IMG/VR virus record: IMGVR_UViG_3300003314_000001
Coordinates: 1-64,000 of that record
DNA from: a virus
DNA length: 64,000 nucleotides
Direction: 5' to 3' (one strand)
The notes beneath the pieces were generated by a model. The model was not told the origin of the DNA and searched no databases. It worked only from the letters and a program-made list of their open reading frames with translations. Positions 42,105 through 56,109 of this stretch are shown in pieces. Numbering within the stretch: position 1 is the stretch's first letter; the number at the start of each line of letters is the position of its first letter. Position numbers and translations under genes: made by a program.

Positions 42105-43292
42105 TTAGAGTCCCTGAAGCATCTCGTCAACCACTTCGTCTTCGTCCACTTCGCTCTCGAATTCCTCTTCCAGTTCCGCTTCGTGGTTCTCCAGAACGTA
42201 GTCCAGAACCATTTCCTCGTTGTCTTCCGCGAGCAGTTCCAGAACGCGCTCCGGCTTCTTCTGGATTGCGAGCTTCGTGTACTTGGCGGCCTTCCCGACT
42301 TCTTCCGTGTCTTCCGTAGTGTCTTCAGTCATAGTTTCGTCTTCAGCTTCTTCTTGTTCGTCGTCCGATTCCTCTTCCGTCTCCGTTCGAGGGTCGCCGG
42401 ACTCTTGGAATAAGTCTTGACCCTTGTAGACCGTACTGCTTCCCGAATTAGTCACGTCCATCAGGAACTTCCGCTTTTCGTCGGCAAGACTTCCACGGGC
42501 TTCCGGAACTTCCGAGCAAATTGCCGCGGTCCGTTGCTTTTTGTTCAGTCCCTCAATGTCTACCGCCCGAATTTGGGACTTGATAGACTCACTGAATGCG
42601 TCCGAATCCTCTTGACCGAGGTTATCGTAGTTACCCCGACCGCTGGATTCTTCCGTTTCTTCCTCTTCCTCTTCTTCCTCTTCGTTGTTCTTGTAGACTG
42701 GAATGTCCTTCTGGCCGAACGTCTCCACCCATTCCACCGGAAGGTAGAAGTCTTCCCATTGCTTGTTAGTCCGTGACTCAATCGGCGACTTGCCGACTCG
42801 GACCATTTCCGGATTATCCATCCAGACGGCTTTCCGGACCGGGAAACTTGCCTTATAGTCCTCTATCGTCACATCGTCCGGATTGATTTCAGTTTCCTCT
42901 TCGACTTGCTTGTAGAATTCGTCCTTAGCGGCCTCTTTCGCTTTTTTAGCCGCATAGCGAGAGTACAGGAATGCCAGCGGACTTTCAGCTTTCTCCCAAC
43001 TTCCGCCCGGAGTCTCTTCTGATTGACCTATCGACTTGTTCGGGAAACGGTCGTCTGACTGACTGTAGACCGTACTCGTCGGTTTCACGTTACCCATCTT
43101 TTCGCCGTACTTGGCGTACATCAGAAGAGCGAAAGCGTACTTCTCACCACCTGAAAGCCGCGACTTGAATTCAGTGAATTCGTGGGTTTCGTCGTTTCTG
43201 TCTTCTCGTCGTAGCACACCTTTCGGAGTGTTCGGGGCCGCATTGTTTTCCGAGTCGCTACCGAAGCCTTCCGCGTTTAGGGATTCACTCAT
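42105..43292 (-). CDS. Hypothetical highly acidic protein
   Basis: 395-aa ORF with poly-Glu tracts. No firm motif. Confidence 0.6.
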   Translation of the reverse strand: MSESLNAEGFGSDSENNAAPNTPKGVLRREDRNDETHEFTEFKSRLSGGEKYAFALLMYAKYGEKMGNVKPTSTVYSQSDDRFPNKSIGQSEETPGGSWEKAESPLAFLYSRYAAKKAKEAAKDEFYKQVEEETEINPDDVTIEDYKASFPVRKAVWMDNPEMVRVGKSPIESRTNKQWEDFYLPVEWVETFGQKDIPVYKNNEEEEEEEEETEESSGRGNYDNLGQEDSDAFSESIKSQIRAVDIEGLNKKQRTAAICSEVPEARGSLADEKRKFLMDVTNSGSSTVYKGQDLFQESGDPRTETEEESDDEQEEAEDETMTEDTTEDTEEVGKAAKYTKLAIQKKPERVLELLAEDNEEMVLDYVLENHEAELEEEFESEVDEDEVVDEMLQGL

Positions 43293-43410: not shown

Positions 43411-43548
43411 TCACTCCAATCGGGAAAGCGGAATGTCTCCGCCGGGGTCCCATTCCGAAGCTTCGCCGTCTCCTGCCGCTTCTTCTTCCGGACTTGGTTC
43501 GCCGAACGTTACCTTTTCGCCGTCTTCGTCGCGGCCAACTTTAGCCAT
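43411..43548 (-). CDS. 45-aa acidic mini-protein
   Basis: MAKVGRDEDGEKVTFGEPSPEEEAAGDGEASEWDPGGDIPLSRLE. Starts 2 nt after the upstream stop. Confidence 0.35.
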   Translation of the reverse strand: MAKVGRDEDGEKVTFGEPSPEEEAAGDGEASEWDPGGDIPLSRLE

Positions 43549-43550
43549 TC

Positions 43551-43856
43551 TTACACTTCCTTACCATCGTATTCTTTAACCACTAAGTCCATTTGCATTT
43601 CAATTTCCTTGAAATGTTGTCGAATGTCCATTGTTTCCTCGCGGTTTTCTTTCGGATATTGGCCCCATTCCGCGGCTTTTCCAAGGGACTTTATCATGTC
43701 CGTAACTTCATTCCGACTCCAACTTTTGTCGATGTTGTCGAAATTCGGAATTGGGTTTTCAACTTCTTTCCCGTCAAACGCATTCCGAATCAATTCCTCT
43801 TCTCTATCAGTCAATTCCACAAACACTTCCGGTTCGACATGGATTTTTGAATCCAT
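43551..43856 (-). CDS. Hypothetical protein (first gene of the minus block)
   Basis: 101-aa ORF bordering the ORF-free spacer. Confidence 0.55.
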   Translation of the reverse strand: MDSKIHVEPEVFVELTDREEELIRNAFDGKEVENPIPNFDNIDKSWSRNEVTDMIKSLGKAAEWGQYPKENREETMDIRQHFKEIEMQMDLVVKEYDGKEV

Positions 43857-46800
43857 ATTGACAGGGAAGACGGGGAGCCTTCCAGACTTAACACGTCCGA
43901 CCGTAACCCCTTGAACTGTCTACAATTCTATGTCTATTCAACTTTCTGTTTTAGTATGACTTGTTTCGCTAACACGTCCGTATCGGCGATACGGAAATAT
44001 CCGTTTCCGACGCGAGACTTATGATTTTATCCCGCTATAGTCCTTACCGACGTAACATTATAAGTTTACAATGTTTTCAGGATGAATCCATACTCAATAA
44101 CTGTTTTCCCGCGAGCATGACCGGACTTTGTGCGACACTTTACAATCGCCGCCTATCCATTTGACACTACTAAGGACGAATTACGCTAATCGTTCGGAAT
44201 ATCGGACCGAAACAACCCTTTCGCGCATTCCTAACTCGGAATGACGGAATTGTTGACGGAATCACGGATTACTCACAGTAGTTACTTCTTGAACTACCAC
44301 CTAATTCCATTCCGGAATTTCTTCCGAAATTTCGACAAATCACGGTATAGCTCTTGGCTATCCTTAACCAGTTCTACCTTTTTGTATCCTCCAAACTTCT
44401 CGAATCATCATTAACCTACGCCTATACTAAGTCTCTCAAGGTCCCAACGTTGGCCGCATTGTCAGACGCCGTATTGGGAATATTTTCAGTAGTGGTTTGT
44501 GCTTACATTCAAGCCCCCAACACTCATGGTTTAGGACGGGAAGGTGTTACCCTTCCGGTCCGGAAACGTTCCGAACCATTTTGGTTTCGTCCGACGCTTT
44601 GGTGTATCGCGCCAATTAGGAGTGTTGTCGTACACACAACCTTGAAGACTGTTAGGTACTTGTTATAACGCTTTTTCTCGTACCGTTCCATCCTACTATT
44701 TCGCCGGTCCGTTCCTATATCCTATCCGGAAAACTGCTAACTGCTACAAGGCTAATCTCATTCCGACCGTATTATGGCAACTCGCTTCCGTCCAATACTT
44801 ACTGTTTCACTTCCAGCTTTCTCTTTAGGGCCATATTATCGGGCGCATTCCGAGGTTACTTTCAAATGTGTCAAATTCAGGAATTACGTGTTTCCTTGGG
44901 ACCTTACCGCGGGAATTCAGTGACCTAATTATGGTGTGTGAGTGACAATTCACTCAAATGAGGGTTACACTCATTTTCCCATATCAACCCGGTCCTACCA
45001 GAAGGACATTTCAATTCACCTACCATACTTGTGGAGGAGTATGCCAACCCCGGAACGGGGTTCTTGAGGTATCACCGTACTAAGGCGGGTTTTCGTCCGG
45101 TCCCAAAGGGCCACGGTCATTGGAATGAGTACCTCGCGTCAATCCCCCGCAACGCCGGGATATAGACCCAATTTGGTTAGGGGCTTACATTGTTCCGGTC
45201 GGGCGTTCCCTTCCGGCCACATTACTTCGTTTGTGCCTTTCCCACTTAAGGGTTTCGATTCCGTTTTCCGGAACAAACGTCCGGACCGGAATCACCGGCA
45301 TTGAAGCAAACCCCCGAGAATTGAAAATGTGGAATCTTCCGCTTTCCATCTCGTTCGCACCTTCTTGCCATTTCGAGACATAATAGGAGTTGCTTGAACG
45401 GACTTTGCCTTTAAGGCCGTTTCCGGTTCACTTCATCGCTTTGCCGGAAGATTCCGTTTCCAACTTCGGGGGCTTTCTAAGGGATTCCGCCCGAAGGGGG
45501 AATCCCGGAAGGCCACTTCGACCTTCACATTACTACAAATGCACGGGGTACATATAAGGCTTTCGTTTCGGAACGACAAGGGTTTGAAGGTCTATGTAAC
45601 CTTGTACGTGCGCGGGCGCGGCGCGGGCGCGTTGCGAGGGTCGCATAATTGTACGTGCGCACGTAAGGACCGCCCTATACCATAATCCGTGAATCTGTAT
45701 CGGCCAATCGGAAGTGTAAGCTGAACGCCCACTTTATTAATCATGAAGGATAGAATGTACAAGTTCTTGCATAAAACCATTGTACAAGTCTGGAAGCGCC
45801 GCCAGTAGCCCGTTCCGGACCGTTCCGGACCGTTTAGGGTGTATCTATATAGACCTATTTTCCATCAATGTACAAGTCTGTGGGACGGTGTACATTCCTG
45901 TACACTAATGTAATGTCAACCTTCTAAGGGTCGGATTTTGATAACTGACGATATTATTCCACCCTTCAAAATATTACAAAGGCGCGAGAGGGCTTGAGAC
46001 GTACATACTGCAATCGCTCATTTTCGCGCAAAGGGTGGGGGTTTGACGGGGTAGAACCGGGTTGCAGGGTTGTACATCTGTGTACAAAAATATACACTGG
46101 AATACGAGTCGGCGCACCTTCCCGACCGTTTTTGTTCATCTTGTAAGTGTCAGATGAATAGATTACTAGCAGATGGCTGATTCCAAGACTGTGATGGATA
46201 ACAATTGTGTTAAGTGTCTGTGTGAGAGACATTTAGACTAACCAACCTGTAATCCAAAACCACCAAACAAACAACCAACGTGTCGGTTTTCCGGCGTTCC
46301 GGGATTGTTTGGTAGGGTTACATGTCAATCGTTCCATTATGCTATCACTGACAGTAATTCCCGGAATATAGGGTAGGGTGGCCGACACCCCCACCAGTTA
46401 GAACAATAACCAGTCTATATATGTGACATATAGATAGTTACCTGCTCAGAAATATTTCGGTTTTGGCGAGTTCCGGGGGGTTCTTGTACATCTTCGTGTT
46501 CATTGGTCTGTGTTGGGACGTGAATGTGTGCATGAACGTGTATAATTCCACCTTTTTGGGTGAATTCCGGACTCAAACCCCTCTAAAAGTGCAATTTTCC
46601 AGTTTCCGGCCATTTTGTTTAAGTATATGGGTCTCGTAGGGTGTTTTGGACGGAACGGACTTGCTCAACCCATCTTATCCAAGTACGTCCAATCCCAATC
46701 GGTGACGGCGGACTCTTCTCGTCCCTCGTCTTCAGTAGAACACTCTCATTCCATCCCTTAACAGTCGGGAAGCGGCCAGCGGCGGCGCGGCGTCTTCCAG

Positions 46801-47100
46801 ATTGTTCCGGGGGTGCGCGCGAGAAGGTCATTCAGGCGACAGTATGCAAGATGATGTATATTTCTGGACTAACCGAAAGATATTTATGCAAGAACAAACG
46901 ATAAGGAACCCCTTTCACTTATAAAAGACTCCAGAATCGGAGGGGGGTATATATAGGGTGAACAATTACTAAGGGTAGAGGGAGTACCCACACCGGAACA
47001 CAGCAACAGTTTCAATCCGGACAATATTTTACCATATCGGGTACTCCAACCAATACACCCTTTCAGTACCATACAATCCTATGGGCGGCGGCTTCCCGAT

Positions 47101-47132
47101 TGAATGAGTACTCATTGAATGTGTACTCATTG
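47101..47132 (+). promoter_or_regulatory. Tandem 17-bp operator-like repeat with 14-bp palindrome
   Basis: TGAATGAGTACTCATTG and TGAATGTGTACTCATTG, back to back. AATGAGTACTCATT (47103-47116) is a perfect palindrome. Follows GCGGCTTCCCGATTG, upstream of the first late gene. Confidence 0.5.
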
Positions 47133-47174
47133 GGAAGGTACAGTAACAATAGTACGCTTTGTGAATCTATTATC

Positions 47175-47906
47175 ATGGCACAGCAAGAAGTAACAGGAAT
47201 CACCACGGAAGAAATCGCGGAACTTCGTGAAGAATTCCTTGAGAAGCCGGAAGGCGACTTATACGACCTCGAAGACCGCTACTGCCTTGTTAAGATTCCA
47301 CACCAACCGGAAGACTACGACGGTCCGGACCGCTACTGCCCACAGAGAGCTAGCGACAAAACCAACGACGTATGGCGTTGTCGCGCTCATAAAGGACGCG
47401 GAACTTCAAGTCCCGGCGAAGAACTACAACGCGGAAATCCAAAACATCACATGTACTCTACACCAGACTATCTCCTTGAACATCTAAGCGAGGAAGAGCA
47501 GGAAGTCTACGACGAAATTATGTCGTGGGCTGAAAAATACGGAATTGACAAGGAGGAAGACCCCGCAGTCTACGACGACCTCCAAATGCTCGCCGTGGAA
47601 CGAGTACGTTCAATAAAGACCGGAGAGTACATCTTGAAGGAAGGAGAGACCCGCGAGACGCCTATCTATGGAGAAGACGGCTTGGAAGGCTACGAAGACG
47701 ACACGAACGCCATTTCGGAAGAACACCGTCGTCTAATCGGACTCATACAGTCGCTCAAGAAAGACCTCGGCCTCACTCGGAAAGAACAAATGAAGGCCGA
47801 CGACCGGAACATAATGGCCGAGAGCGCCGACACAACCTCTGAAGCCATGAGCGAACTGGTTTCCGACGAAGACAAGAAGTTCAACGTAGACGAATACGAA
47901 CCGTAA
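47175..47906 (+). CDS. Putative small terminase subunit / DNA-binding protein
   Basis: ATG at 47175. First gene of the late operon, just downstream of the tandem palindromic operator-like repeat and two genes before the large terminase. Function inferred from position only. Confidence 0.4.
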   Translation: MAQQEVTGITTEEIAELREEFLEKPEGDLYDLEDRYCLVKIPHQPEDYDGPDRYCPQRASDKTNDVWRCRAHKGRGTSSPGEELQRGNPKHHMYSTPDYLLEHLSEEEQEVYDEIMSWAEKYGIDKEEDPAVYDDLQMLAVERVRSIKTGEYILKEGETRETPIYGEDGLEGYEDDTNAISEEHRRLIGLIQSLKKDLGLTRKEQMKADDRNIMAESADTTSEAMSELVSDEDKKFNVDEYEP

Positions 47907-47946
47907 TCAGTTTCGACACGCTTCCCGATTGCTTACGGATTTTACT

Positions 47947-48141
47947 ATGAATAGAGAGACCGCAGAGTCCTCAACGGCGGAAGCCGGAGAGGGAACGACT
48001 GAACCGGGTAAGATTAATCCGATTGCCGACATGGACGGACATACCGCCACCGACGCTGGTTTCGAGTTTACTGGTGGCGAATATGGTCCCGAAACATGGA
48101 TTACGTGTGATTTGGATGGACTCCTTACCTTGGAGATGTAG
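47947..48141 (+). CDS. Hypothetical small acidic protein
   Basis: ATG 18 nt downstream of the CTTCCCGAT motif, 64 aa. Confidence 0.45.
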   Translation: MNRETAESSTAEAGEGTTEPGKINPIADMDGHTATDAGFEFTGGEYGPETWITCDLDGLLTLEM

Positions 48142-48246
48142 CCAGAACGAACGCACGCGCCGCGTGAGCGATTCCTTTAGATTGTGAGGGTGATACCTCA
48201 TGTCGAAGTAAGAATCGTCTGACGGGCCGTACAGGAGGCTCAAGTA

Positions 48247-50046
48247 ATGTCAGATATAGACGATAAAATCATCCAGAAGTTCGCGGATGAACAAGGACTG
48301 GACCCTGATAAAGTCAGGAAGCGGTGGCACAACAGTCCGGCCACCATAGCCGAAGACATATTCCGGATTGAAGACGTTGACACCGGACAACTTCGTGACT
48401 TGACACTGTTCCGACCGATTCAGACGAAGGTGGTTGACGCCTACTTCTACTCTGATTCCGGAACAATTAACATGTATAAGGGTCGCCGTATCGGTTATTC
48501 CTTCATTGTTATCGTCTGCTTCCTTCTGGAAGCGATGATGATACCGAATTCGGTGTATCCGGTTGTGTCAACGAAGGAAGACCAAGCGAAAAACCGAATT
48601 TCTGACGTTAAAGACCTAATTAAGCACGCTAAAATCGACATTCCGACGAAAAAGACCAATAAAGGAGAAGTTATTCTCTGGAACGGGTCGAAATTCAAGG
48701 CTTACTCCGGAAGTCCGGACAGTTCCCGTGGGGACGACTCCGCCCGCGGCGTTCTACTGGACGAAATGGCTTTCCTTGAAGACCAACAGGAAGTTAGTCA
48801 AGCGTTCGGAGCGTTCCTTGCGCTTGGTAATGACCGGAAGATGTTCGAGGTTTCCACTCCGAAAGTATCCTCGGACATGTTCATGCGGAACCAGAAAGAA
48901 GGTTCCAAAACAGGATACGTCCAGCGGTGGCGTGATTCCAACGGAAATTGGCATAAGCAGGACGTTAAGCCGAACGAATACCATGTTGGAATGGAATCCG
49001 CTGGAACACTGTCGATTAAACAGCCAACGTTCCATAACGCGGACGAAATCGACATAAATACTCCACTTTACAATCAGGAACTTAAGCCGGTTCGTCCCGA
49101 CTTGAACATTGATAAGGTGGAAGACGAGCGTTCCAAAGACCCGAAAGGATTCGGACAAGAATATCTGTGTAGGCCTGTTGACGACACCTACGCATTCTTC
49201 GATGAAGATTCCATTAAACGGGCTATGGAGCGCGACCTTCCCGACCTCCGACGTTCTAACATGACAGTGATGGGTGTTGACATTGGAATTTCCAAAGACG
49301 ACACCGTTGCCGCAATCGTGGAACACCGGAAAGACATGAAGGCTATGAGAGAGTTGGAGATTCTTAACGATACCAACTTGAAGGAAGCCGCGGAAACCCA
49401 TAAGAGAAATGAACAATTGCATCCTCGACACGTCGCACATCAAGTTGCCAAGAATCCTGACCGGAGCAACCCCGAACAAATCGCTTACCGTGTCAGTCAA
49501 CTGGCGGAAAAATACGACGTGGACTATATCGTTATCGACCGGACCGGACCGGGCGAAGGTTTCCGTAGTCAAATTGAGTCGAACTTCGGACGCGGACTTA
49601 TAGGATTCAACTTCTCCGACAAAGACGAAGTGGAATCAATGATGGGCGACATGAACAACGCCCTTCGGAACGACCGAGTAGTTCTTCCGAATCACGACCG
49701 ACTCTTGGACGAAATGTCGGCCATTCAGAAGGAACAACGTGAAGACTACACGAAACCGAAATTCACTGGAAAGGATTACAGTGAGTCAGGAAAAGACGAC
49801 ACCGCAATGGCGGCGGTCTTGGCGAGTTTCCCGCCGAACCTTCGTAAGCAACCTTCTACCTCTATGGATTCAGTTCAGAGAGAAGGAAAGCGGGAAATAA
49901 ACGAAGACGAGAAGAAGAAGAAACCCACCGCTAAGGTGGACGTTGAAGACACTTTCGAGCCGGAAAGAAACTTCGGACAGACGAATACGAAGAATAGGCG
50001 CGGAAAAAAGCGTAAAAAGTACAAATCGAGATACGGACGGGGATAA
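48247..50046 (+). CDS. Terminase large subunit
   Basis: 599 aa immediately upstream of portal. Walker-B-like VLLDEMAF, nuclease-domain-like MGVDIGISKDDTV. Basic C-tail. Confidence 0.85.
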   Translation: MSDIDDKIIQKFADEQGLDPDKVRKRWHNSPATIAEDIFRIEDVDTGQLRDLTLFRPIQTKVVDAYFYSDSGTINMYKGRRIGYSFIVIVCFLLEAMMIPNSVYPVVSTKEDQAKNRISDVKDLIKHAKIDIPTKKTNKGEVILWNGSKFKAYSGSPDSSRGDDSARGVLLDEMAFLEDQQEVSQAFGAFLALGNDRKMFEVSTPKVSSDMFMRNQKEGSKTGYVQRWRDSNGNWHKQDVKPNEYHVGMESAGTLSIKQPTFHNADEIDINTPLYNQELKPVRPDLNIDKVEDERSKDPKGFGQEYLCRPVDDTYAFFDEDSIKRAMERDLPDLRRSNMTVMGVDIGISKDDTVAAIVEHRKDMKAMRELEILNDTNLKEAAETHKRNEQLHPRHVAHQVAKNPDRSNPEQIAYRVSQLAEKYDVDYIVIDRTGPGEGFRSQIESNFGRGLIGFNFSDKDEVESMMGDMNNALRNDRVVLPNHDRLLDEMSAIQKEQREDYTKPKFTGKDYSESGKDDTAMAAVLASFPPNLRKQPSTSMDSVQREGKREINEDEKKKKPTAKVDVEDTFEPERNFGQTNTKNRRGKKRKKYKSRYGRG

Positions 50047-50049
50047 AAC

Positions 50050-51510
50050 ATGAGTAATGACGTAAGGCAGAGCATATATGAGCGAGTCCGGAATGGGGAC
50101 GTTGACGGTGTTGACGCCTCCAATTTCGCCCTTGACAGTCCAAAAGCTGTCATTAAAGAGGGTAATTCCGGTAGTGGCGTTGGTGGAAGCCGCGCTACAG
50201 AAGCTCCAGAGAACGAAATCGAAGACTTCCGGGAGATTGCTGACACGGACCCTCACGTCAACGAAGCTATTGATACGCTCGTTGACTTTCTCGTCGGAAG
50301 TGGTTTCAATGTTCAGCCTGCTAATATTCCCGGAACGGACGAAGGTCAGACACCTGAAGATATAGCGGAACTGAAGAAACTTATTGAAACTTCTACTTTC
50401 CAGACAGTGCTTCAGGAATGGGTCTGGCACGCTCTTGTTGACGGAACAGCCTTCCTTGAAATCGTTGTGGAAGATGATGTGTTTAAGCCGAAGGTTCTTC
50501 CAACGGAGCGCATGAAGATTCAGACTGACGATAAAGGAACTGTCCAAAAGTGGATTCTGGAACCTCCGGGCGGCGGAGGTCAAGATAGTGACATTAAGTT
50601 CAATCCGTCCGACCTTGCGATTCTAAGATTCCATAAACATCCGGGTGAAGACTTCGGACACAGTGTTCTGGAATCCTGTCACGAGCAAGCTGACATGCTT
50701 CGAGACATGGAGATTGACCTTGCTCGTTTCATCGCTACTAAGGCTTACCCGCCAATTCTGTGGAAGCTTGGAAGCGAGGAACGGCCTTGGACGCAGGACC
50801 AGATTGACGGATGGTTAGAGGAACTGGAAGAAATCGACCCGGAGAGTCAACTTGCGGTCGGTCACGACGTTGAACACGAAGTGGTAGGTGTTACGGACAC
50901 TTCCACTTCTTCTGGAGCTATGGAACTTGATTCCACTTTCAAACATCTTCAGCGTCGTATTGCCGCTGGAATTGGTGTTCCGGACTTCTTCCTGAATATG
51001 GGTGTTGACGTTTCGTCTGGAACTGCTCAAGTGGAAATGCCGAAGTTCGACCGCCGAATTCAGCGTTATCGGAGTATTATTAAGCAGGCTATCCGACACC
51101 AAATCTTCGTTTCGATTCTTGCAGGTGACGGAGACCCCGCTGACTATAATGAGGTTCCTCCGGACTTTGAATTCGGAACGCATAGTTCCGAGGAAGAACG
51201 TCTGGAAGCTGACAAGGCGATTAGTCTACTTAACAATGGCCTTATCAGTCCGGAAGCCGCCGCACGTAAGCTTGATATAGACCCGGAAACGGAGCTTCCC
51301 GACATTTGGAAGAATGGAAATCTTATTGAGGTTCTACAGAAGCTCGCTGGAAACGGCGATAATATTCAGAACCCTAATGGTGGTAGTCCGACTGATACGG
51401 GAACTGGAACGGATTCTGCTGGTGGCGAGGCTACAACTCGGGAGAAGCCCGCTACCGGAGACAATTCCGGCGATGATTCCCGGAATGGAAAAGGAGCAAG
51501 CGAAACGTGA
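50050..51510 (+). CDS. Portal protein
   Basis: 486 aa. Canonical position between the terminase and the prohead protease. Confidence 0.8.
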   Translation: MSNDVRQSIYERVRNGDVDGVDASNFALDSPKAVIKEGNSGSGVGGSRATEAPENEIEDFREIADTDPHVNEAIDTLVDFLVGSGFNVQPANIPGTDEGQTPEDIAELKKLIETSTFQTVLQEWVWHALVDGTAFLEIVVEDDVFKPKVLPTERMKIQTDDKGTVQKWILEPPGGGGQDSDIKFNPSDLAILRFHKHPGEDFGHSVLESCHEQADMLRDMEIDLARFIATKAYPPILWKLGSEERPWTQDQIDGWLEELEEIDPESQLAVGHDVEHEVVGVTDTSTSSGAMELDSTFKHLQRRIAAGIGVPDFFLNMGVDVSSGTAQVEMPKFDRRIQRYRSIIKQAIRHQIFVSILAGDGDPADYNEVPPDFEFGTHSSEEERLEADKAISLLNNGLISPEAAARKLDIDPETELPDIWKNGNLIEVLQKLAGNGDNIQNPNGGSPTDTGTGTDSAGGEATTREKPATGDNSGDDSRNGKGASET

Positions 51511-51516
51511 TGTAGT

Positions 51517-51777
51517 ATGGACGAAGACGAGAAGGAAGAAATTTTGCATCGACTTGACGAGAAGACGGATAGTCTACATGAAAACCAAAAGGAAATTCGG
51601 GACGACGTTCGTACCAATCGGGAAGTCTACAACGACCGTCTGAACAAGACGGATAATAGATTGGACAAGGTAGATGATACAGCCACCAGTAATAAGGTTA
51701 GGATTGCTGGTCTTGCTTTCGGTATCACCCTACTTCTTTCAATTGCAGTAAGAAATATGGGATGGATACCAGTATGA
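51517..51777 (+). CDS. Small protein with C-terminal TM helix
   Basis: 86 aa ending in IAGLAFGITLLLSIAV. Confidence 0.5.
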   Translation: MDEDEKEEILHRLDEKTDSLHENQKEIRDDVRTNREVYNDRLNKTDNRLDKVDDTATSNKVRIAGLAFGITLLLSIAVRNMGWIPV

Positions 51778-52442
51778 CAGAACAAGATGATTTGGACGTT
51801 GCAGGATTCAACGTTGAATTCCAGCGTCCGGAACAAGACTTGCTGGACGACGGCTTTAACGAGTACGGTGTCCGGGAGAATTATGACGGTGATGAACTGG
51901 AATCTATAGACGTTATCTATAACGCTATGGAACCCGGTATCCGTAAGGGAGTCGAAATCACACCAGAATTCCTCCGGACTGTCGAGGGCAACACACCCGA
52001 TAACGTTCCGATTCAGTACGACCACTCTCATTCCCAACGGATGAACGTGGGATACTTGAAGAAGATTAAGTATTCGGATAGTGCTGGAATGCTACGTAAG
52101 ATGTTCAATATTCCGAATACTGGTAGTCAGATTCGGGAGGACACTATTGCGGACTTTACGCATTCCACCGGACCGCAGATTAAGGACGGTAGCGTTGGGT
52201 TTGACCCTCGTTCTCTGGAATTCTCGGAACCAAACTCGGATGAAGCGAAGGCACAGTTCACGGACGGTAAGATTATTGAGTTTAGTCTTACTCCGTTCCC
52301 CGCTGGCTATGATAATGGTGGAATTACACCAAAATTCAGTCAGGCGGTTGAATCGTTTGCGGATAAAATGGAAGAACAGTCTGACGGTGGCAGTCAGATT
52401 GTGGAAGCGGAAAGCCAACTACAATACAGTCAACTAAAGTGA
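51762..52442 (+). CDS. Prohead (HK97-type) maturation protease
   Basis: 226 aa. IQYDHSH and EFSLTPFPAGYDNG resemble the HK97 protease His and E-x-S-x-x-x-x-PA motifs. Position after portal. Confidence 0.7.
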   Translation: MDTSMTEQDDLDVAGFNVEFQRPEQDLLDDGFNEYGVRENYDGDELESIDVIYNAMEPGIRKGVEITPEFLRTVEGNTPDNVPIQYDHSHSQRMNVGYLKKIKYSDSAGMLRKMFNIPNTGSQIREDTIADFTHSTGPQIKDGSVGFDPRSLEFSEPNSDEAKAQFTDGKIIEFSLTPFPAGYDNGGITPKFSQAVESFADKMEEQSDGGSQIVEAESQLQYSQLK

Positions 52443-52448
52443 TTCAAA

Positions 52449-52910
52449 ATGGATGCACTCGAATTCGGTAAGGAAATCGGCGACATGGAAGGAGCAGAAG
52501 CACGGGCTACTCTTCGAGATGTTCAGTCTCGCTACAGTAAGGCCCGACAGGAACATCAGGAAACTAAGGAAACCCTCTCGGAATACAAGGACAAGCTGGA
52601 AGTCGCCGAGGATGAAGCGGACGAAGCGCGGGAATTCTTCGCGTCGTTCGCGTCGGACGCTTCCGGACTGTCGAAGGACACTATTCTGGACAAGTTCGAT
52701 AGCGCGGACGAAATCCGTGAGGAATTCCTCGGCGACGAAGCGGAATTCAAGCTTGTTTCGGACGAGCAGGAAACGGAGACCGAGGATGAAGACGAATCTA
52801 CGTTCGCCGATAAGGAAGAGAAGTCGGACAATCTTCCCGGCGACGGTGGCTCTTCGGAATTCGGTGACGCCTCGCAGGTCATTAGCGGAATGACTGTGAG
52901 CCACGAGTAA
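52449..52910 (+). CDS. Putative scaffolding protein
   Basis: 153 aa, Glu/Asp-rich helical, between protease and capsid genes. Confidence 0.5.
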   Translation: MDALEFGKEIGDMEGAEARATLRDVQSRYSKARQEHQETKETLSEYKDKLEVAEDEADEAREFFASFASDASGLSKDTILDKFDSADEIREEFLGDEAEFKLVSDEQETETEDEDESTFADKEEKSDNLPGDGGSSEFGDASQVISGMTVSHE

Positions 52911-52944
52911 ACATTGCAGTAACTAACAAGGAGATTCTATAATA

Positions 52945-53424
52945 ATGGTTAATTTCGATATTGCGAACCCCAAGGACGACAACAACCGCTACGCTGGCGC
53001 GGCGGTCGAGGAACTGGACCAAGGCGACCTCGGTACGGTTAACGCGAACGGAGAGATTGTTCAAGCTGACGCCGCTGACGGCATTCAGGGACAGGCTATG
53101 GGTGTCGTTCTCACTCCTGTCCGTGACCCTTCGCATTCCCGTTACGGAGACCTTCAGTACGTCAAGAATCAGCTCAAGGAGAACCAGAACGTTCTCGTCG
53201 GCGAGGGCGACCGCGCTCTTCTCATCAAGGACGACCTTCTACTGGAAGACCTTGACGAAGCGGACTCGCTCACTCCCGGTAAGCCAGTCTATCTTGCCGA
53301 AGGTGGCGGCGTGACGCAGACCGCTCCGTCTACTTCCGGTTCGGTTGTCCAGATTGTTGGTGTCGCTCAGGACCCCAACTCGTTCCTGCTTGACGTTACT
53401 GTCGTGGACAGTACGAACGCATAG
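52945..53424 (+). CDS. Putative head decoration protein (DUF2190-like)
   Basis: 159 aa just before the capsid gene. Gly/Val-rich beta-type sequence. By-eye call. Confidence 0.45.
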   Translation: MVNFDIANPKDDNNRYAGAAVEELDQGDLGTVNANGEIVQADAADGIQGQAMGVVLTPVRDPSHSRYGDLQYVKNQLKENQNVLVGEGDRALLIKDDLLLEDLDEADSLTPGKPVYLAEGGGVTQTAPSTSGSVVQIVGVAQDPNSFLLDVTVVDSTNA

Positions 53425-53465
53425 ACTACTAACTAGCACTTTACAACAATAATTATTGATACACT

Positions 53466-54407
53466 ATGGCACGAAATACACGCATTCTTACGGCTGACGG
53501 CGTTCCGCTTGAGCGCCTGATGGAATACGGTGAAGACCTGACCGACGAATTCGAGGCTAACGCTGACCGGATGTTCCAGTCGCTACTTGGAACGGAAGTC
53601 AATCAGCGCGTCTTCCAGAAGCGCATTGGAGAAATCAATTGGCGGAAGGCCGCCGAGGGCGAGAAGCCCCGCACCGGAACTCTCGACAGTACCAGCATGG
53701 CGTTCACGATTGACGAATTCAATGCTGGTCTCGGTTGGGACCGGAACTACATTGAGGATAACCCCGGTTCGGTTCTCCGAGAGGAAATGGACGAACTGAT
53801 GAAGGGCGCGGACGAACGCATTTTCGAGGAAACCTTCACCGTCATGAAGAACGGTATCGCTGACGGTACGGAACTGGAATGGGCTACTCCCCCGTCGCCC
53901 GGTACTCGGGACTTCGCCGCTGACCACAACCACGTCTTCGATACTACCGGAGACCTCTTCGATGATTCCAACGCTCACAGCGTCCGGGAACACATTGCGA
54001 AAGCGGGCGTGGAACTTCAGCACCACAAGTATTCCGCTCGCGTTGCGTTCGTTAGTCCGGACCTTGCATGGAAGCTCCTTCAGGAAGACAGCAACAACCT
54101 GAATTTCCAGATTCGGGAAGCGCGCTCGCTCCTGAACACTCCGCTTCCGAACCTCGAATTCGACGTGAACGGTACTCGCGTCGTTCAGACGGCGGAACTG
54201 TCCGGTGACACGTTCTACGTCTTTGACGACACTCTCAATCCGCTCAAGTACAATTGGGTCCGTCCTGTTGAAGTTGTGCAGGGTGAGAGTCAAGCTCCCG
54301 TCAACGACCCGACCGAACTTATCGGGGCGCACGGTTCGGCGCGCTTCGGTATCAAGATGGTCAATCCGTGGGCGGGCGTCAAGGTCACTGCTACCAACAT
54401 CGCCTAA
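53466..54407 (+). CDS. Major capsid protein (HK97 fold)
   Basis: 313 aa. Canonical position after protease, scaffold and decoration genes. Confidence 0.8.
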   Translation: MARNTRILTADGVPLERLMEYGEDLTDEFEANADRMFQSLLGTEVNQRVFQKRIGEINWRKAAEGEKPRTGTLDSTSMAFTIDEFNAGLGWDRNYIEDNPGSVLREEMDELMKGADERIFEETFTVMKNGIADGTELEWATPPSPGTRDFAADHNHVFDTTGDLFDDSNAHSVREHIAKAGVELQHHKYSARVAFVSPDLAWKLLQEDSNNLNFQIREARSLLNTPLPNLEFDVNGTRVVQTAELSGDTFYVFDDTLNPLKYNWVRPVEVVQGESQAPVNDPTELIGAHGSARFGIKMVNPWAGVKVTATNIA

Positions 54408-54436
54408 TATTGGCGATAACTTTTTAGTACAGTCGT

Positions 54437-54793
54437 ATGGCTCATAAAGAAATTACTCCAAGTGACGTTCGGAAGGACGTGGCAAAGAACCGGAGCGGAA
54501 ACATTGGAAACGGAAACTCTCGGCGCGGTGGAAACCGAAAGCTACCTAACCTACGTGGACATGGCAGGTTCACGGACGAGGAATTACGGAAAGAAATAAA
54601 CCGGAACAGTCGGGAAGTGGGCGACCATACAGCAACCGAAATTATTCGGTATTACACTTATCTTCGTGTTTCTCTAATGTTAGAAGGTAAGAATCCTCCT
54701 TCCTCCATAAGCCACGCCCGAAGGTATGGATACGAACAACAACAGCATAAATTTTGGCGCGACCGAATGATTCGCGCACTTGATAAATCATGA
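54437..54793 (+). CDS. Hypothetical basic protein, head-tail module
   Basis: 118-aa ORF. Contains the 19-mer CAGTCGGGAAGTGGGCGAC. Confidence 0.5.
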   Translation: MAHKEITPSDVRKDVAKNRSGNIGNGNSRRGGNRKLPNLRGHGRFTDEELRKEINRNSREVGDHTATEIIRYYTYLRVSLMLEGKNPPSSISHARRYGYEQQQHKFWRDRMIRALDKS

Positions 54794-55161
54794 CAGTAGA
54801 AACCCGTGTCCGGACTCTTACGGACTACGACACAGAAATTATTTCGTCTTCAGACATGGATACTCTTATCGAGTTGTCCAAGGACGAAATTAAGGAAGAC
54901 ACCGGAATGGACGAAATTGACTTTTCTTCCGGAGCGGGAAAATCCGCCTTGATGTGGCTTACCTGTATTTTCAGTAAGATTCACGTTGGCGAGATTGGGG
55001 CGGAAGGATACCAAATTGGTGAAATTGAAACGAAAGACTTGAACGACCAAGCGAAAGTTTGGTTCGGACAGTATCGTTCTCGTCGCTCCGACGTTATTGG
55101 AACAAAAACCATTGGACACGCTAAACCGTCACGGTCTGGAAGGTCCTACGGTGATGAATAA
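54790..55161 (+). CDS. Head-tail connector module protein
   Basis: 123 aa with ATGA overlap. Function from position only. Confidence 0.5.
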   Translation: MTVETRVRTLTDYDTEIISSSDMDTLIELSKDEIKEDTGMDEIDFSSGAGKSALMWLTCIFSKIHVGEIGAEGYQIGEIETKDLNDQAKVWFGQYRSRRSDVIGTKTIGHAKPSRSGRSYGDE

Positions 55162-55520
55162 TGAAGCGACATAGGAAACACGTTAAGGTTAATATTAAAC
55201 GTGCCGGTAACAAGGCTGAAATTCTTCGTGCTTCCGGTGGAACAGAGAACGGCTACGGGAAAGTAACTGATTCCAGTTCTTCTTGGGGTCCAGTGGAAAC
55301 GACGTATGCCGTTCCGTCTTTTGATTCTGGTGATACGTTCCAAGAGCAGACTGTTACTGGAGGTACTCAAGATATTAATACTCCTGTTTTCCGATTTCCC
55401 TACGATTCAGTAGTTCAAAGCGAAGACCGAATCATATATGAGGGAATAGAGTACGAAGCTAAATCAGTTGCTCCATATAGCACTCACAAGGTTGCTCAAG
55501 TGGTGTCCGTTGATGGCTAA
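55161..55520 (+). CDS. Head-closure/adaptor-like protein
   Basis: 119 aa. Function from position only. Confidence 0.5.
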   Translation: MKRHRKHVKVNIKRAGNKAEILRASGGTENGYGKVTDSSSSWGPVETTYAVPSFDSGDTFQEQTVTGGTQDINTPVFRFPYDSVVQSEDRIIYEGIEYEAKSVAPYSTHKVAQVVSVDG

Positions 55521-56109
55521 TGGTAACATCACGATTGACGTAGAAGTCGATTCTGACGCTATTGTGGGCCGCATACGTGAAGCTTTCGAGGATGGAATAG
55601 ATGAAGCGGCGGAAGACCTTGGAGAAGACGGAACGGAGAAAGCCCGTCTTAAAATCGTTGAGGAAGGAGCAGTCTGGAAAGGAGAACTGCTCGCTTCTTT
55701 CAATACGAAGATAACAGACCAAGGTGGAACAACAATTGTTCAAATCGAGAACAATGCCGAGTACGCTAAAGCAGTAGATGAAGGTGTAGATTATTACGAG
55801 AACGCTCCACCAATTCATCGTCTTCTTCCGTGGGTGGAGGAACATCTTGGACACTGGACTCCTTCCGACTACGAGTATGCGAAGGAGGTAGCGGCCTACT
55901 TTAAGAAGAATAGTAACCGGGCAATAGACGAATACATGGATTTGGACGTGTGGAGGGCGTATGAGCTTCAGAAAGAGTTGAAGGTTCACGGTCTTGACGC
56001 GGTAGAATTCATGGATTTCGCGGAGGAATGGCTTGAACATCATGGTAGTTTCGTTGTCCGGAATAATATTTTAAAAGAACTACGGAAGAATGGTATAGAT
56101 GCAAGATAA
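55513..56109 (+). CDS. HK97 gp10-like tail-attachment protein
   Basis: ATG (MANGNITIDV...). Size and position fit the gp10-like family. By-eye call. Confidence 0.5.
   Translation: MANGNITIDVEVDSDAIVGRIREAFEDGIDEAAEDLGEDGTEKARLKIVEEGAVWKGELLASFNTKITDQGGTTIVQIENNAEYAKAVDEGVDYYENAPPIHRLLPWVEEHLGHWTPSDYEYAKEVAAYFKKNSNRAIDEYMDLDVWRAYELQKELKVHGLDAVEFMDFAEEWLEHHGSFVVRNNILKELRKNGIDAR

What the first reader, a model, noticed from the sequence alone, without database searches (positions are those of the whole stretch)
43857..47174. 3.3-kb ORF-free, hairpin-rich spacer between the divergent early (-) and late (+) gene blocks
Elsewhere in the window genes are packed with ATGA/TAATG start-stop overlaps. 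Here 3.3 kb contains only six 60-104-aa ORFs in mixed frames and strands, and their translations are Cys/Trp/Arg-rich and non-acidic, unlike every credible protein of this genome. The DNA is highly structured. It has an 8-bp hairpin GGGATTCC..GGAATCCC (45481-45506), a 12-bp palindrome ACGTGCGCACGT (45653-45664) and a GC-only block GCGCGGGCGCGGCGCGGGCGCG (45610-45631). It also has a tandem CGTTCCGGAC x2 (45811-45830), an inverted repeat TCTATAT-N7-ATATAGA (about 46412-46432), a TGTACA iteron cluster, and copies of the CTTCCCGAC motif in both orientations (46118, 46762). A class-3-like element (gene-sense AAACTTATAATG..GTCGGTAAGGAC, 44042-44070) faces the early block. Candidate roles are a replication origin, physical genome termini or packaging site, or one or more long structured ncRNAs. 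None of these is assignable from sequence alone.
Basis: partly seen in the sequence, partly recalled or inferred. Interest (0 to 1): 0.75.

Follow-up and report, generated by a model that had tools for sequence, protein, structure and literature searches.

The report
Large structured early RNA beside terminus
The gene-free 3.3 kb between the early and late genes of this salt-loving archaeal virus is real. About half of it appears to encode a previously undescribed, roughly 1.7-kb folded non-coding RNA made from a conserved early promoter, and the rest is probably the genome-end/packaging region plus the late promoter.

Summary
Window 43857-47174 has no coding potential in any frame, no Rfam or tRNA match and no protein-level relative.

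The window is a Hafunaviridae-like haloarchaeal myovirus. The gap lies between the first early gene (minus strand) and the small terminase gene (plus strand). In isolates HF2 and HRTV-25 this position holds the physical genome ends.

I read two halves.

(1) 45531 to 43857, minus strand. A conserved archaeal promoter (BRE CGAAA, TATA TTATATG at 45551-45557, start near 45531) faces the early genes. The same promoter occurs in HF2, HRTV-25 and two metagenomic relatives. Downstream, the only close relative (L010) shows 26 doubly compensated base pairs in 660 nt, against 0-6 in shifted controls, including long-range helices.

The equivalent 1.4-kb CDS-free stretch of 13 HF2-group genomes is strongly structured: 50 of 117 pairs covary in one 550-nt domain. 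Neither Rfam nor the papers I read describe it.

(2) 45575-47174. This holds a significant TGTACA cluster and conserved DNA blocks without covariation, which I infer to be the terminal-repeat/packaging region, then the conserved late promoter and terS leader.

Not shown: transcription, strand (about 75% confident), RNA function and the exact termini.

The parts
43857..45531 (-). Predicted long structured early leader / non-coding RNA of about 1,675 nt. It runs from the inferred start (AATGTG at 45531) to the ATG of the first early gene (43856).
   Evidence: Promoter orientation. Covariation with L010 over 44451-45112. No U5 tract on this strand before the early gene. No coding potential. The positional equivalent in the HF2 group is strongly structured.
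45545..45573 (-). Conserved early promoter: BRE-like CGAAA at 45561-45565, TATA TTATATG at 45551-45557, and an initiator-like AATGT 26 nt downstream at 45527-45531.
   Evidence: An nhmmer profile of the HF2-group non-coding region hits this site and the equivalent sites in L006 and L016, all in the same orientation. HRTV-25 has the same architecture. The site is unique in the window.
44896..45106 (-). RNA domain B: a multi-helix domain closed by an 8-bp helix (TTGGGACC/GGTCCCAA in the window, ATGGTGGC/GCCACCGT in L010).
   Evidence: 43 pairs, of which 12 are doubly compensated, 1 is G.U-compatible and 0 are broken. P=6e-5 even with the mismatch columns held fixed. Covariance model R1 finds only the window and L010.
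44451..44700 (-). RNA domain A. It has a hairpin with conserved loop GUAACA and fully swapped stems, plus a 7-bp helix spanning 100 nt (AACACTC/GAGTGTT versus TTCACTC/GAGTGAA). It is tied to the segment just 3' of domain B by a conserved 10-bp helix, 44862-44871 with 44632-44645.
   Evidence: The 44862-44871/44632-44645 helix has a U.G to C-G change that is valid only on the minus strand.
45481..45506 (-). 8-bp hairpin near the 5' end of the predicted RNA, 25-50 nt from the inferred start.
   Evidence: Sequence read. Position relative to the start.
44040..44067 (-).
   Evidence: Related copies (CTTAATA/CTTAAGTA ... GTTGGTAAGGAGG) lie upstream of other minus-strand genes at 26402, 25199 and 7194.
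45610..45664 (.). GC-only tandem (GCGCGGGCGCG x2) and the 12-bp palindrome ACGTGCGCACGT, 40-110 bp upstream of the early promoter.
   Evidence: Not alignable with L010. Function not assigned.
45756..46086 (.). TGTACA cluster (7 copies). It includes the tandem CCGTTCCGGA x2.5 (45810-45834) and conserved block C (45899-46086). Inferred terminal-repeat / packaging or regulator-binding DNA.
   Evidence: Cluster significance. Block C is 72% identical to L010 but shows no excess of compensatory changes. The 20-mer at 45813-45832 is 100% conserved in L010. The terminus position is inferred from HF2, HRTV-25 and the contig starts of L013 and L014.
46281..46307 (.). Short conserved block D, 89% identical to L010.
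46412..46432 (.). Inverted repeat TCTATAT-N7-ATATAGA. The adjacent 31 nt (46428-46458) are 94% identical in the distant relative L005.
46872..47174 (+). Late promoter region and terS leader. TATA-like boxes at 46882-46888, 46919-46926 and 46948-46955, a conserved leader, and the tandem 15-mer ATTGAATGAGTACTC x2.3 at 47099-47132.
   Evidence: 77% identical to L010 and 75% to L011, continuous with terS. Positional equivalent of the HF2 class II repeat IR12c, which drives the 35-kb late transcript (PMC8707807).
47175..47906 (+). Flank: terminase small subunit gene.
   Evidence: phrog_9231 terminase small subunit, E=2.4e-47. Homologous to HRTV-25 gp4.
43551..43856 (-). Flank: first early gene, 101 aa, an acidic ORFan.

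Best explanation
The gap is the terminal control region of a Hafunaviridae-like haloarchaeal myovirus. It has two functionally different halves.

Left half, 45531 down to 43857, minus strand. A conserved archaeal promoter (BRE, TATA and an ATGT initiator) fires towards the early genes. It produces a roughly 1.7-kb non-coding RNA that folds into several helix-rich domains and, with no U-tract terminator in the way, probably continues into the first early gene. I take this RNA to be the first thing made after genome entry. I also expect it to have a function of its own (stable RNP, decoy or scaffold, possibly released by processing) rather than being a passive leader, because its size and multi-domain, long-range architecture far exceed known prokaryotic cis-leaders.

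Right half, 45575-47174. This is DNA-level. It contains short tandem repeats and a TGTACA site cluster, where the direct terminal repeat and packaging recognition most likely lie (about 45.76-46.1 kb). These are followed by the late promoter and the 5' leader of terS.

Shown: absence of coding, promoter conservation, RNA base-pair covariation, and the TGTACA clustering.

Inferred: transcription itself, the strand, read-through into the early gene, the position of the termini, and any function of the RNA.
For: Context.
- TerL and portal are 67% identical at nucleotide level to HRTV-25 (Hafunaviridae), and terS is confirmed.
- HF2 has a terminal repeat at 1-306, then no CDS until 1970. On the other end, terS lies 1.0-1.3 kb from the repeat.
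- HRTV-25 has the same layout with a 242-bp repeat.
- A gene-free gap of 2.5-3.3 kb upstream of terS recurs in relatives L005, L006 and L017.

Non-coding.
-. Mismatches against L010 show no 3-nt periodicity: 23/25/25 and 16/15/15.

Promoter.
- An HF2-group profile hits the same BRE-TATA-N19-ATGT unit in L006 (E=0.009), L016 (E=0.014) and the window (weak, E=2). All hits are in the orientation facing the early genes.
- Side by side, the units in the window, L006, L016, HRTV-25 and HF2 line up.
- L010 shares the first transcribed bases, TGTGAAGGTCGRAGYGGCC.

Structure in this lineage.
- Alignment A8 (window versus L010, minus strand) has 117 pairs, 26 with changes on both sides, against 0-6 in slid controls.
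- Domain B has 12 of 43 pairs doubly compensated and none broken.

Structure in the HF2 group (13 genomes).
- The region is 80-90% conserved.
- Alignment-fold z-scores reach -12 to -15.
- The whole-leader fold (1,444 columns, HF2 540-1990) gives 71 helices; spans of 335 and 544 nt have 7 and 4 doubly compensated pairs and about 0% broken.
- In alignment A7, 94.3% of cells pair against 36-52% when slid, 50 of 117 pairs covary against 6-14, and the covariation score is 0.332 against 0.085 or less.

Strand.
- In the HF2 group there are 125 G.U cells against 21 A.C cells in A7, and 569 versus 382 in strand-specific folds.
- In the window lineage, three changes are valid only on the minus strand against one valid only on the plus strand.
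- The plus strand has T5 tracts at 44379 and 44672, inside or next to domain A. The minus-strand RNA has no U5 tract.

Right half.
- The TGTACA cluster is significant.
- Blocks C and E are conserved without excess covariation.
- Contigs of relatives L013 and L014 start 1021 and 1043 nt upstream of terS, matching the left-end distance in HRTV-25 (1004 nt) and HF2 (1276 nt).

Timing.
- The HF2 0-5 kb region is immediate-early (PMC7230728).

Novelty.
- No Rfam hit at E of 1 or less in the window, L010 or HF2-group loci.
- No mention in the HF2-group papers or the archaeal-virus survey I read.
Against: - Only one informative relative (L010) exists for this lineage, and it stops at 44451. Therefore 43857-44450 and most of 45107-45531 have no comparative support.
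- The structure was predicted from the same two sequences it is scored on.
- There is no transcript evidence for any of these viruses. Published HF2 RT-PCR and primer-extension work did not probe the region.
- The window's own hit to the HF2 promoter profile is weak (E=2). It is credible only through its context and the side-by-side comparison.
- The strand call is moderate. The closing helix of domain B carries one U.G that fits only the plus strand.
- Homology of the RNA body to the HF2 leader is not demonstrated. Profile and covariance-model searches find only the promoter. The shared 16/18-nt motif (CCCGYCTTAGTACGGKG) is of borderline significance.
- Single-sequence folding energies are unremarkable.
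- The proximal promoter-like element at 44040-44067 could mean that the early mRNA does not include the long RNA.
- The terminus position rests on analogy only. The terminal repeats of HF2 and HRTV-25 show no sequence similarity to the window.
Confidence: 0.68

Rival explanations
1. The structured RNA is real but is transcribed from the plus strand, in late-gene sense, for example from a start near 44.1-44.4 kb running rightwards through domains A and B.
For: Watson-Crick compensations are strand-symmetric. One U.G in the closing helix of domain B (L010), and two possible U.G pairs next to the domain A hairpin, fit only the plus strand. Domain B folds about equally well on both strands.
Against: The conserved promoter faces the other way. 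Three one-sided changes fit only the minus strand. T5 tracts at 44379 and 44672 lie on the plus strand, inside or next to domain A. In the HF2 group the early-gene sense is favoured by the G.U/A.C counts and by energy. No plus-strand promoter was found conserved, because L010 ends at 44451.
Confidence: 0.12
2. The long RNA is only a passive or cis-regulatory 5' untranslated leader of the early operon, affecting stability or translation control, with no independent function.
For: There is no terminator between the promoter and the first early gene. In the HF2 group the covarying hairpins run right up to the start codon at 1970. Its position directly upstream of the early genes is conserved in every relative.
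Against: A length of 1.4-1.7 kb with domain-closing helices spanning 335-544 nt is far beyond known prokaryotic leaders (own knowledge). The window has a second, proximal promoter-like element at 44040-44067 that could serve the early genes on its own. Domains A and B are conserved about as well as terS at nucleotide level, 74% against 77%.
Confidence: 0.25
3. The whole region works at the DNA level only (replication origin, terminal repeat, packaging signals). The apparent compensatory changes reflect DNA hairpins or cruciforms, or single-stranded replication intermediates.
For: In related isolates the genome ends lie in this interval. The region has palindromes, tandem repeats and a significant TGTACA cluster. 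HF2 annotation places putative nick sites at the repeat borders.
Against: Loops are conserved while stems vary, which is the opposite of protein-bound palindromes. Helices pair segments 100-550 nt apart. G.U pairs alternate with Watson-Crick pairs. No ORB-like origin site lies in the region. The covarying part and the repeat/TGTACA part are physically separate.
Confidence: 0.05
4. The region consists of decayed or frameshifted protein genes, or a foreign insertion such as a mobile element or intron remnant.
For: In HF2 the equivalent interval carries one real gene (a HalOD1-domain protein), and in HRTV-25, HRTV-24 and HJTV-2 small ORFs are annotated there.
Against: There is no coding signal in any frame. 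Six-frame fragments hit only the homologous DNA of L010/L011, equally in all frames, and no gene of any other fetched locus. There is no substitution periodicity, no group I/II intron or other Rfam hit, and no long flanking repeats typical of an insertion. The gap is conserved in position across the clade.
Confidence: 0.03

Closest known systems
Left-end non-coding region of haloviruses HF1/HF2 and other Haloferacalesvirus genomes (HF2 nt 306-1970)
   Same: Same genomic position, between the terminal repeat/terS side and the first early gene. Same BRE-TATA-ATGT promoter unit facing the early genes. Short tandem repeats upstream of that promoter. A CDS-free stretch of 1.4-1.7 kb with strong base-pair covariation. 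A shared 16/18-nt motif (CCCGYCTTAGTACGGKG) at 450-530 nt from the predicted start.
   Different: The RNA body is not alignable by blastn, nhmmer or covariance model. The HF2 version is more G+C-rich and thermodynamically much more stable. HF2 has a real gene (HalOD1-domain) between the repeat and terS, which the window lacks. The HF2 region is itself not described as an RNA in the papers I read.
Large 'ornate' bacterial/phage non-coding RNAs (GOLLD, ROOL, OLE, HEARO; Rfam families)
   Same: Size class above 500 nt, multi-domain architecture with long-range closing helices, conserved loops with covarying stems, unknown biochemical function. GOLLD and ROOL are often phage-borne (own knowledge).
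   Different: No covariance-model match at any threshold tried. The host is an archaeal virus. The RNA sits directly downstream of an early promoter and upstream of genes, so it may be part of an mRNA.
Left-end early region of coliphage T7 (terminal repeat, host-polymerase promoters A1-A3, about 0.9 kb before gene 0.3) - own knowledge
   Same: A non-coding stretch next to a direct terminal repeat at the end of the genome carrying the early genes. It has promoters for the host polymerase and is transcribed first.
   Different: The T7 region is mainly promoters and is not known as a large covarying RNA structure. There is no sequence relationship. Whether this end of the archaeal virus enters first is unknown.
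phi29 prohead RNA (pRNA) - own knowledge
   Same: A structured viral non-coding RNA encoded next to a genome end and made from an early promoter. It shows that terminus-proximal RNAs can act in packaging.
   Different: pRNA is 174 nt, belongs to protein-primed podoviruses, and has a defined hexameric or pentameric ring function. There is no similarity in sequence, size or genome type.
HF2 class I/II intergenic repeat promoters (PMC8707807)
   Same: Repeated AT-rich promoter elements upstream of gene blocks. The late-promoter block at 46872-46958 occupies the position of HF2 IR12c upstream of terS, and the 44040-44067 element is a repeated promoter-like unit.
   Different: There is no sequence similarity to the HF2 repeats. 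The far-upstream early promoter is single-copy in the window, and per that paper HF2 left-end transcripts are not explained by the repeats.

Membership tests
Any Rfam 15 family (including GOLLD, ROOL, OLE, HEARO, group I/II introns, RNase P, SRP RNA, ribozymes, riboswitches) | Covariance-model score at or above the family's gathering threshold | tested here: not met
   Whole window at gathering thresholds gives only 4 tRNAs elsewhere. Region 43500-47500 at E of 5 or less gives two sub-threshold snoRNA chance hits. L010, L005, L006, L017 and HF2-group loci at E of 1 or less give nothing.
HF2-group left-end structured leader (provisional family defined here) | Lies between the terminal-repeat/terS side and the first early gene, in early-gene sense | tested here: met
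   Synteny: terS at 47175, first early gene at 43856. HF2 layout. The orientation relation is confirmed by the profile hits.
HF2-group left-end structured leader (provisional family defined here) | Driven by the conserved BRE-TATA-N19-ATGT promoter unit | tested here: met
   The window's own profile hit is weak (E=2); the side-by-side match is what makes it convincing.
HF2-group left-end structured leader (provisional family defined here) | Detectable sequence or structure homology of the RNA body | tested here: inconclusive
   blastn finds none. nhmmer finds the promoter only. Covariance model R1 of domain B gives only a weak HF2 hit, E=2.6, on the expected strand around CCGUACUAAG. The 16/18 shared motif lies at a similar distance from the start.
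HF2-group left-end structured leader (provisional family defined here) | Multi-domain secondary structure supported by compensatory changes | tested here: met
   Window lineage. HF2 group.
Direct terminal repeat / physical genome end of Hafunaviridae | The same 230-740 bp sequence present at both physical ends of virion DNA | not testable with these tools
   The window is an assembled metagenomic contig that runs through the region. A repeat would be collapsed, and read data are not available here.
Direct terminal repeat / physical genome end of Hafunaviridae | Located about 1.0-1.3 kb upstream of terS and about 200-240 bp upstream of the early promoter | tested here: inconclusive
   Both rules point to 45.76-46.18 kb, which coincides with the TGTACA cluster and block C. 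There is no sequence similarity to known repeats.
Archaeal Orc1/Cdc6-type replication origin | ORB / mini-ORB repeats flanking an AT-rich unwinding element, usually next to an orc1/cdc6 gene | tested here: not met
   The ORB-core pattern, allowing up to 3 mismatches, has 25 matches in the window but none between 43857 and 47174. The adjacent genes are terS and an ORFan.
Protein-coding gene or pseudogene | Codon-usage signal, 3-nt substitution periodicity, or protein-level similarity to any gene | tested here: not met
tRNA / tmRNA / CRISPR-like array | Cloverleaf genes, or regularly spaced direct repeats | tested here: not met
   ARAGORN finds no gene in the region. TRF finds only 2-4 copy micro-arrays.

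The most novel reading that the evidence does not exclude
Hafunaviridae-type haloarchaeal viruses share a previously unrecognised class of very large (1.4-1.7 kb), multi-domain structured RNA. It is encoded next to the genome end, made from a conserved promoter as the first viral transcript, and acts as an RNA in its own right (RNP scaffold, decoy for a host factor or defence system, or catalytic RNA) rather than as a simple leader. It would be one of the largest structured non-ribosomal RNAs known from any prokaryotic virus, and the first from an archaeal virus.
Probability: 0.4. Interest if true: 0.88.

Novelty: new variant of a known kind. Interest (0 to 1): 0.72.

Why it matters
Large structured non-coding RNAs outside the ribosome are rare. 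Each new class (OLE, GOLLD, ROOL) has opened a research line, and none is known from archaeal viruses.

This candidate is directly testable. The equivalent region sits in HF1, HF2 and more than 30 sequenced isolates that grow on tractable Halorubrum or Haloferax hosts. Northern blots, dRNA-seq, structure probing and deletion genetics are therefore feasible.

It also changes annotation practice. The 1.4-3 kb left unannotated, or filled with tiny hypothetical ORFs, at the ends of hafunavirus genomes probably encodes RNA.

Finally, it gives a concrete hypothesis for what these viruses express first after genome entry.

Tried and rejected
Searches for closer relatives.
- blastn of the region against 50,697 phage records: no match.
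- Exact-pattern scans with the best conserved block in IMG/VR and JGI metagenomes: nothing, not even the source contig.
- TerS-based metagenome scan: nothing.
- TerL-based scans of IMG/VR and GTDB genomes: nothing closer than 72% TerL identity.
- Homologues of the adjacent 101-aa early gene: only itself.
- As a result, only L010 and L011 inform this lineage.

Homology of the RNA body.
- Covariance model of domain B against distant relatives and HF2/HRTV-25 ends: no significant hit.
- nhmmer with the HF2 profile: only the promoter.

Termini.
- Similarity of HF2 and HRTV-25 terminal repeats to the window: none.

ORF-gap survey.
- A crude stop-codon-gap survey of 25 TerL-linked loci was uninformative, because spurious ORFs fill G+C-rich DNA.

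Motifs.
- A 'sponge' idea based on repeated CUUAG/CUAAG loop motifs. These are enriched in the HF2 group (12 against about 2 expected), and CTTAGTA occurs 3 times in the window against 0.1 expected. They are absent from the L006, HRTV-25 and L017 leaders, so it stays a lead only.
- Leaderless translation from the ATG at the predicted start. The ATG is followed at once by TGA in the window, and the frame is not conserved in the HF2 group.

Origin and thermodynamics.
- ORB-type origin: no site in the region.
- Thermodynamic 'hairpin richness': not beyond chance.

Literature.
- HF2-group papers, the archaeal Caudoviricetes survey and the HRTV-DL1 paper contain no description of this RNA.


Full report
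WHAT THE WINDOW IS

TerL and portal genes downstream of the region match Halorubrum tailed virus 25 (Hafunaviridae, Laminvirus) at 67% nucleotide identity, and HF1/HF2-type viruses more weakly. The gene starting at 47175 is a terminase small subunit (phrog_9231, E=2.4e-47). Its products are acidic, as in haloarchaea.

The window is the reverse complement of nt 2107-66106 of a 66,106-bp metagenomic contig, Logan SRR8450738_8991. Genes run leftwards (minus strand) from 43856 and rightwards from 47175. GC and AT skews switch in between.

THE OBSERVATION

I trained a codon log-odds model on 41 long acidic ORFs of the window. It scores the flanking genes at +15 to +64 and every frame of 43.86-47.1 kb below zero. 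The source assembly's gene caller left the same 3.2 kb empty.

All quoted motifs are at the quoted coordinates. TGTACA is clustered well beyond chance: seven of sixteen window sites lie within 331 bp.

The region is not thermodynamically exceptional. Folding z-scores in 200-nt windows are mostly between 0 and -3 and close to those of the coding flanks. 'Hairpin-rich' therefore overstates what the single sequence shows.

Rfam gives nothing, ARAGORN gives nothing in the region, and blastn against 50,697 phage records gives nothing.

NOT DECAYED GENES

I translated 98 stop-free fragments of 25 aa or more from all six frames and searched them against every fetched locus. They matched only the homologous DNA of L010 and L011, in all frames alike. 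Substitutions against L010 show no codon periodicity: 23/25/25, 16/15/15 and 22/14/23. Minus-strand mini-ORFs are basic.

THE GAP IS A CLADE FEATURE AND SITS WHERE ISOLATES HAVE THEIR ENDS

TerS homologues led to contigs of relatives.
- L006 has a gene-free 2.7 kb upstream of terS, and L017 has 2.5 kb, each bounded by a divergent minus-strand gene.
- L005 has 3.3 kb of ORF-poor DNA up to its contig start.
- L010 (TerS 84% identical) has 2.7 kb with no called gene.

In HF2 the 306-bp terminal repeat is followed by no CDS until nt 1970. At the other end terS starts 1,276 nt from the end, with one small gene and a class II repeat between. HRTV-25 has a 242-bp repeat, terS 1,004 nt from the left end, and only 43-66-aa ORFs annotated for about 1 kb at each end. 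The window's gap is thus the circularised junction of the two genome ends.

COVARIATION WITH L010

L010 is collinear with the window from 44451 to terS. Conservation is patchy:
- block A, 44451-44697: 74%
- block B, 44854-45095: 74%
- a 20-mer at 45813-45832: 100%
- block C, 45899-46086: 72%
- block D, 46281-46307: 89%
- 46872 onwards: 77%, continuous with terS

In blocks A and B the differences fall in stems and are compensated, while the loops stay constant.
- Domain B (44896-45106) is closed by TTGGGACC/GGTCCCAA in the window and ATGGTGGC/GCCACCGT in L010.
- Inside it, the hairpins GAGTG-ACAATT-CACTC versus CCGG-ACAATT-CCGG and TGAG...CTCA versus TCGG...CCGA also swap.
- With a hand-curated structure of 43 pairs, 12 are doubly compensated, 1 is G.U-compatible and none is broken. 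This accounts for 25 of the 48 substitutions in the domain. When I randomised the L010 base at the same mismatch columns, the result was matched in 6 of 100,000 trials.
- Domain A has a hairpin with five stem pairs changed on both sides around a constant loop, and a 7-bp helix across 100 nt with AA/TT changed to TT/AA.
- On the minus strand the joint fold of 44451-45112 has 117 pairs, 26 doubly compensated, against 0-6 when the 3' partners are slid by 1-3 columns.
- A column-shuffle test had already singled out these two intervals.
- Blocks C and E show no excess of compensation. I read them as DNA-level elements.

THE HF2 GROUP AS A WELL-SAMPLED EQUIVALENT

HF2 nt 300-1975 is conserved at 82-90% over its full length in about 30 Haloferacalesvirus genomes and at 72% in the HRTV-24/HJTV-2 subgroup. 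Curated records annotate no CDS there. I aligned 13 genomes.
- Sliding alignment folds give z-scores down to -12 to -15, with two to three times more doubly compensated pairs than column shuffles between nt 450-1450 and 1650-1950.
- A global fold of 1,444 columns (HF2 540-1990) gives 71 helices, including 759-772/1082-1094 (12 bp, 7 compensated, 1% broken) and 738-746/1274-1282 (9 bp, 4 compensated, none broken). A span-limited fold of the wider 300-1990 interval gives 477 pairs, 131 of them doubly compensated.
- For the 550-nt domain at 735-1285, the tools report 117 pairs. 94.3% of cells pair (36-52% when slid), 50 pairs change on both sides (6-14 when slid; 25 in shuffles, 0 of 500 reaching 50), and the covariation score is 0.332 (0.085 or less when slid).
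- Rfam has no match.
- The HF2-group papers I read mention conserved tRNA-like sequences and a hammerhead but not this region. The transcript work covered 'the entire predicted coding region' only and notes that left-end transcripts are unexplained. The survey of archaeal Caudoviricetes does not mention it either.

PROMOTER AND STRAND

An nhmmer profile of the HF2-group region found one short unit shared with the distant relatives, always in the orientation facing the early genes: L006 (E=0.009), L016 (E=0.014) and window 45573-45528 on the minus strand (E=2).

Side by side, the window, L006, L016, HRTV-25 and HF2 all read CGA(A/C)(A/G)G(C/A)C-TTATAT(G/A)-(T/C)A(A/C)CCC-N11-13-(A)ATGT. This is a BRE-like purine box, a TATA box and an initiator-like ATGT 26 nt downstream, which is the standard geometry of archaeal promoters (own knowledge). 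The HF2 group has two such TATA boxes in tandem. L010 shares the first transcribed bases. The ATG at the start is followed by TGA in the window, and its frame is not conserved in the HF2 group, so it is not a leaderless gene.

Strand evidence:
- In the HF2 domain, G.U cells outnumber A.C cells 125 to 21. Folds made separately on each strand give 569 versus 382 G.U cells and -830 versus -772 kcal/mol.
- In the window lineage, three one-sided changes are tolerated only on the minus strand and one only on the plus strand.
- The plus strand carries T5 tracts at 44379 and 44672, whereas the minus-strand RNA has no U5 tract from 45531 to 43857.

I put the early-gene sense at about 75%.

The predicted RNA is 1,675 nt in the window, about 1,420 nt in HF2, about 1.1 kb in L006 and about 0.9 kb in HRTV-25.

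A repeated promoter-like element at 44040-44067, related to units upstream of genes near 26402, 25199 and 7194, could give the early genes a second, proximal start.

IS THE WINDOW RNA HOMOLOGOUS TO THE HF2 RNA?

Position, promoter, upstream tandem repeats and size agree. The RNA bodies do not align.

One 16/18-nt motif, CCCG(C/T)CTTAGTACGG(T/G)G, occurs on the same strand at 450 nt (window) and 530 nt (HF2) from the predicted start. By my estimate such a match is expected about 0.05-0.1 times by chance. In HF2 the motif pairs with a segment 300 nt upstream, whereas in the window it appears to pair locally. I leave homology of the body open.

THE RIGHT HALF

- Upstream of the early promoter lie the GC tandem and palindrome (45610-45664), the CCGTTCCGGA tandem (45810-45834), the TGTACA cluster (45756-46086) with conserved block C, then block D and an inverted repeat. 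The 31 nt next to that inverted repeat (46428-46458) are 94% identical even in distant L005.
- In HF2 and HRTV-25 the terminal repeat ends 200-240 bp upstream of the early promoter, and the left genome end lies 1.0-1.3 kb upstream of terS. Contigs L013 and L014 also start 1,021 and 1,043 nt upstream of terS. Both rules point to about 45.76-46.18 kb. This is inference. Repeat sequences are not similar, and an assembled contig cannot show a terminal repeat.
- No ORB-type origin site occurs in the region.
- From 46872 the sequence is conserved with L010 and L011. It carries three TATA-like boxes and a 200-260-nt leader to terS. This corresponds in position to HF2 IR12c, which drives the 35-kb late transcript.

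HOW IT MOST LIKELY WORKS

Shown: the region is non-coding, a promoter unit is conserved across the family and faces the early genes, and the DNA downstream encodes base-pairing that selection maintains.

Inferred:
- The host RNA polymerase fires this promoter immediately after entry. HF2 nt 0-5 kb is the immediate-early region (PMC7230728).
- The product folds into several domains.
- It either stays attached to the early mRNA or is released.

Because prokaryotic leaders of this size and architecture are unknown to me, I favour an RNA with its own function (about 0.4-0.5) over a purely cis-acting leader (about 0.25-0.3). What that function is remains open. A motif-repeat 'sponge' idea found only partial support.

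LIMITS

- One informative relative, ending at 44451.
- No expression data.
- Moderate strand evidence.
- The structure was predicted from the sequences it is scored on.
- The terminus is placed by analogy only.

Searches for more relatives in IMG/VR, JGI metagenomes and GTDB genomes failed.

Noticed in passing
L009 (HF2) 549-1969, and the equivalent stretches of L018-L029: The CDS-free 1.4 kb between the terminal repeat and the first early gene of 13 Haloferacalesvirus genomes is about as base-paired as an rRNA: 477 predicted pairs, 131 of them doubly compensated. It has no Rfam family and is not mentioned in the papers read.
   Followed up: yes
window 23804-26330, minus strand: A cluster of seven tRNA genes by ARAGORN (Val, Asn, Phe, Thr, Ser x2, Lys). 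Only four reach the Rfam tRNA threshold. Two are long-arm Ser tRNAs lying back to back.
   Followed up: no
window 1-5000 versus 47175-64000: The first 5 kb carry plus-strand genes with the same skew as the late block, and the window starts at a contig end. The contig is therefore probably a circularly closed or permuted assembly of a roughly 66-kb linear genome, with converging early and late arms meeting near 5 kb.
   Followed up: partly
window 45531-45526, minus strand; also HF2 549, HRTV-25, L006: The conserved initiator of the early promoter is an ATG. In the window it is followed directly by TGA, and in HRTV-25 by an 8-codon ORF. A start-stop or mini-ORF at the 5' end of the long RNA may be meaningful in mostly leaderless haloarchaeal translation.
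   Followed up: partly
window 44436, 45080 and 44178 (minus-strand CTTAGTA); HF2 leader: CUUAGUA occurs three times in the window's predicted RNA against 0.1 expected. CUUAG/CUAAG occurs 12 times in the HF2 leader against about 2 expected, often in hairpin loops such as GGUCUAAGACC. It is not enriched in the L006, HRTV-25 or L017 leaders.
   Followed up: partly
window 47099-47132: A tandem 15-mer, ATTGAATGAGTACTC x2.3, with each unit internally palindromic, lies 45-75 nt upstream of the terS start codon. The first unit is conserved in L010. It is a possible operator or translational control site for the late operon.
   Followed up: no
window 42105-43292, minus strand: The second early gene encodes a 395-aa, extremely acidic, low-complexity protein with runs of E and D. 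It has no PHROG match.
   Followed up: no
window 26402, 25199, 7194, 31024 and 44040, minus strand: A family of promoter-like intergenic units, CTTAA(G)TA-N12-G(T/A)(T/C)GGTAAGGAGGGAGA, precedes several minus-strand genes. It resembles in concept the HF2 intergenic-repeat promoters.
   Followed up: partly
L001 232-954 and L007 8627-9615 (HRTV-25 record 60626-61614); L027 and L028: The small ORFs (43-66 aa) annotated at the ends of HRTV-25, and several ORFs annotated inside the conserved leader of HRTV-24 and HJTV-2, overlap the predicted non-coding RNA or terminal region. They may be over-annotation.
   Followed up: no
L017 1422-2297: In the relative L017 the gene bordering the gap on the early side carries a helix-hairpin-helix domain (PF14520). 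The early-side neighbour is therefore not conserved across the clade, although the gap is.
   Followed up: no
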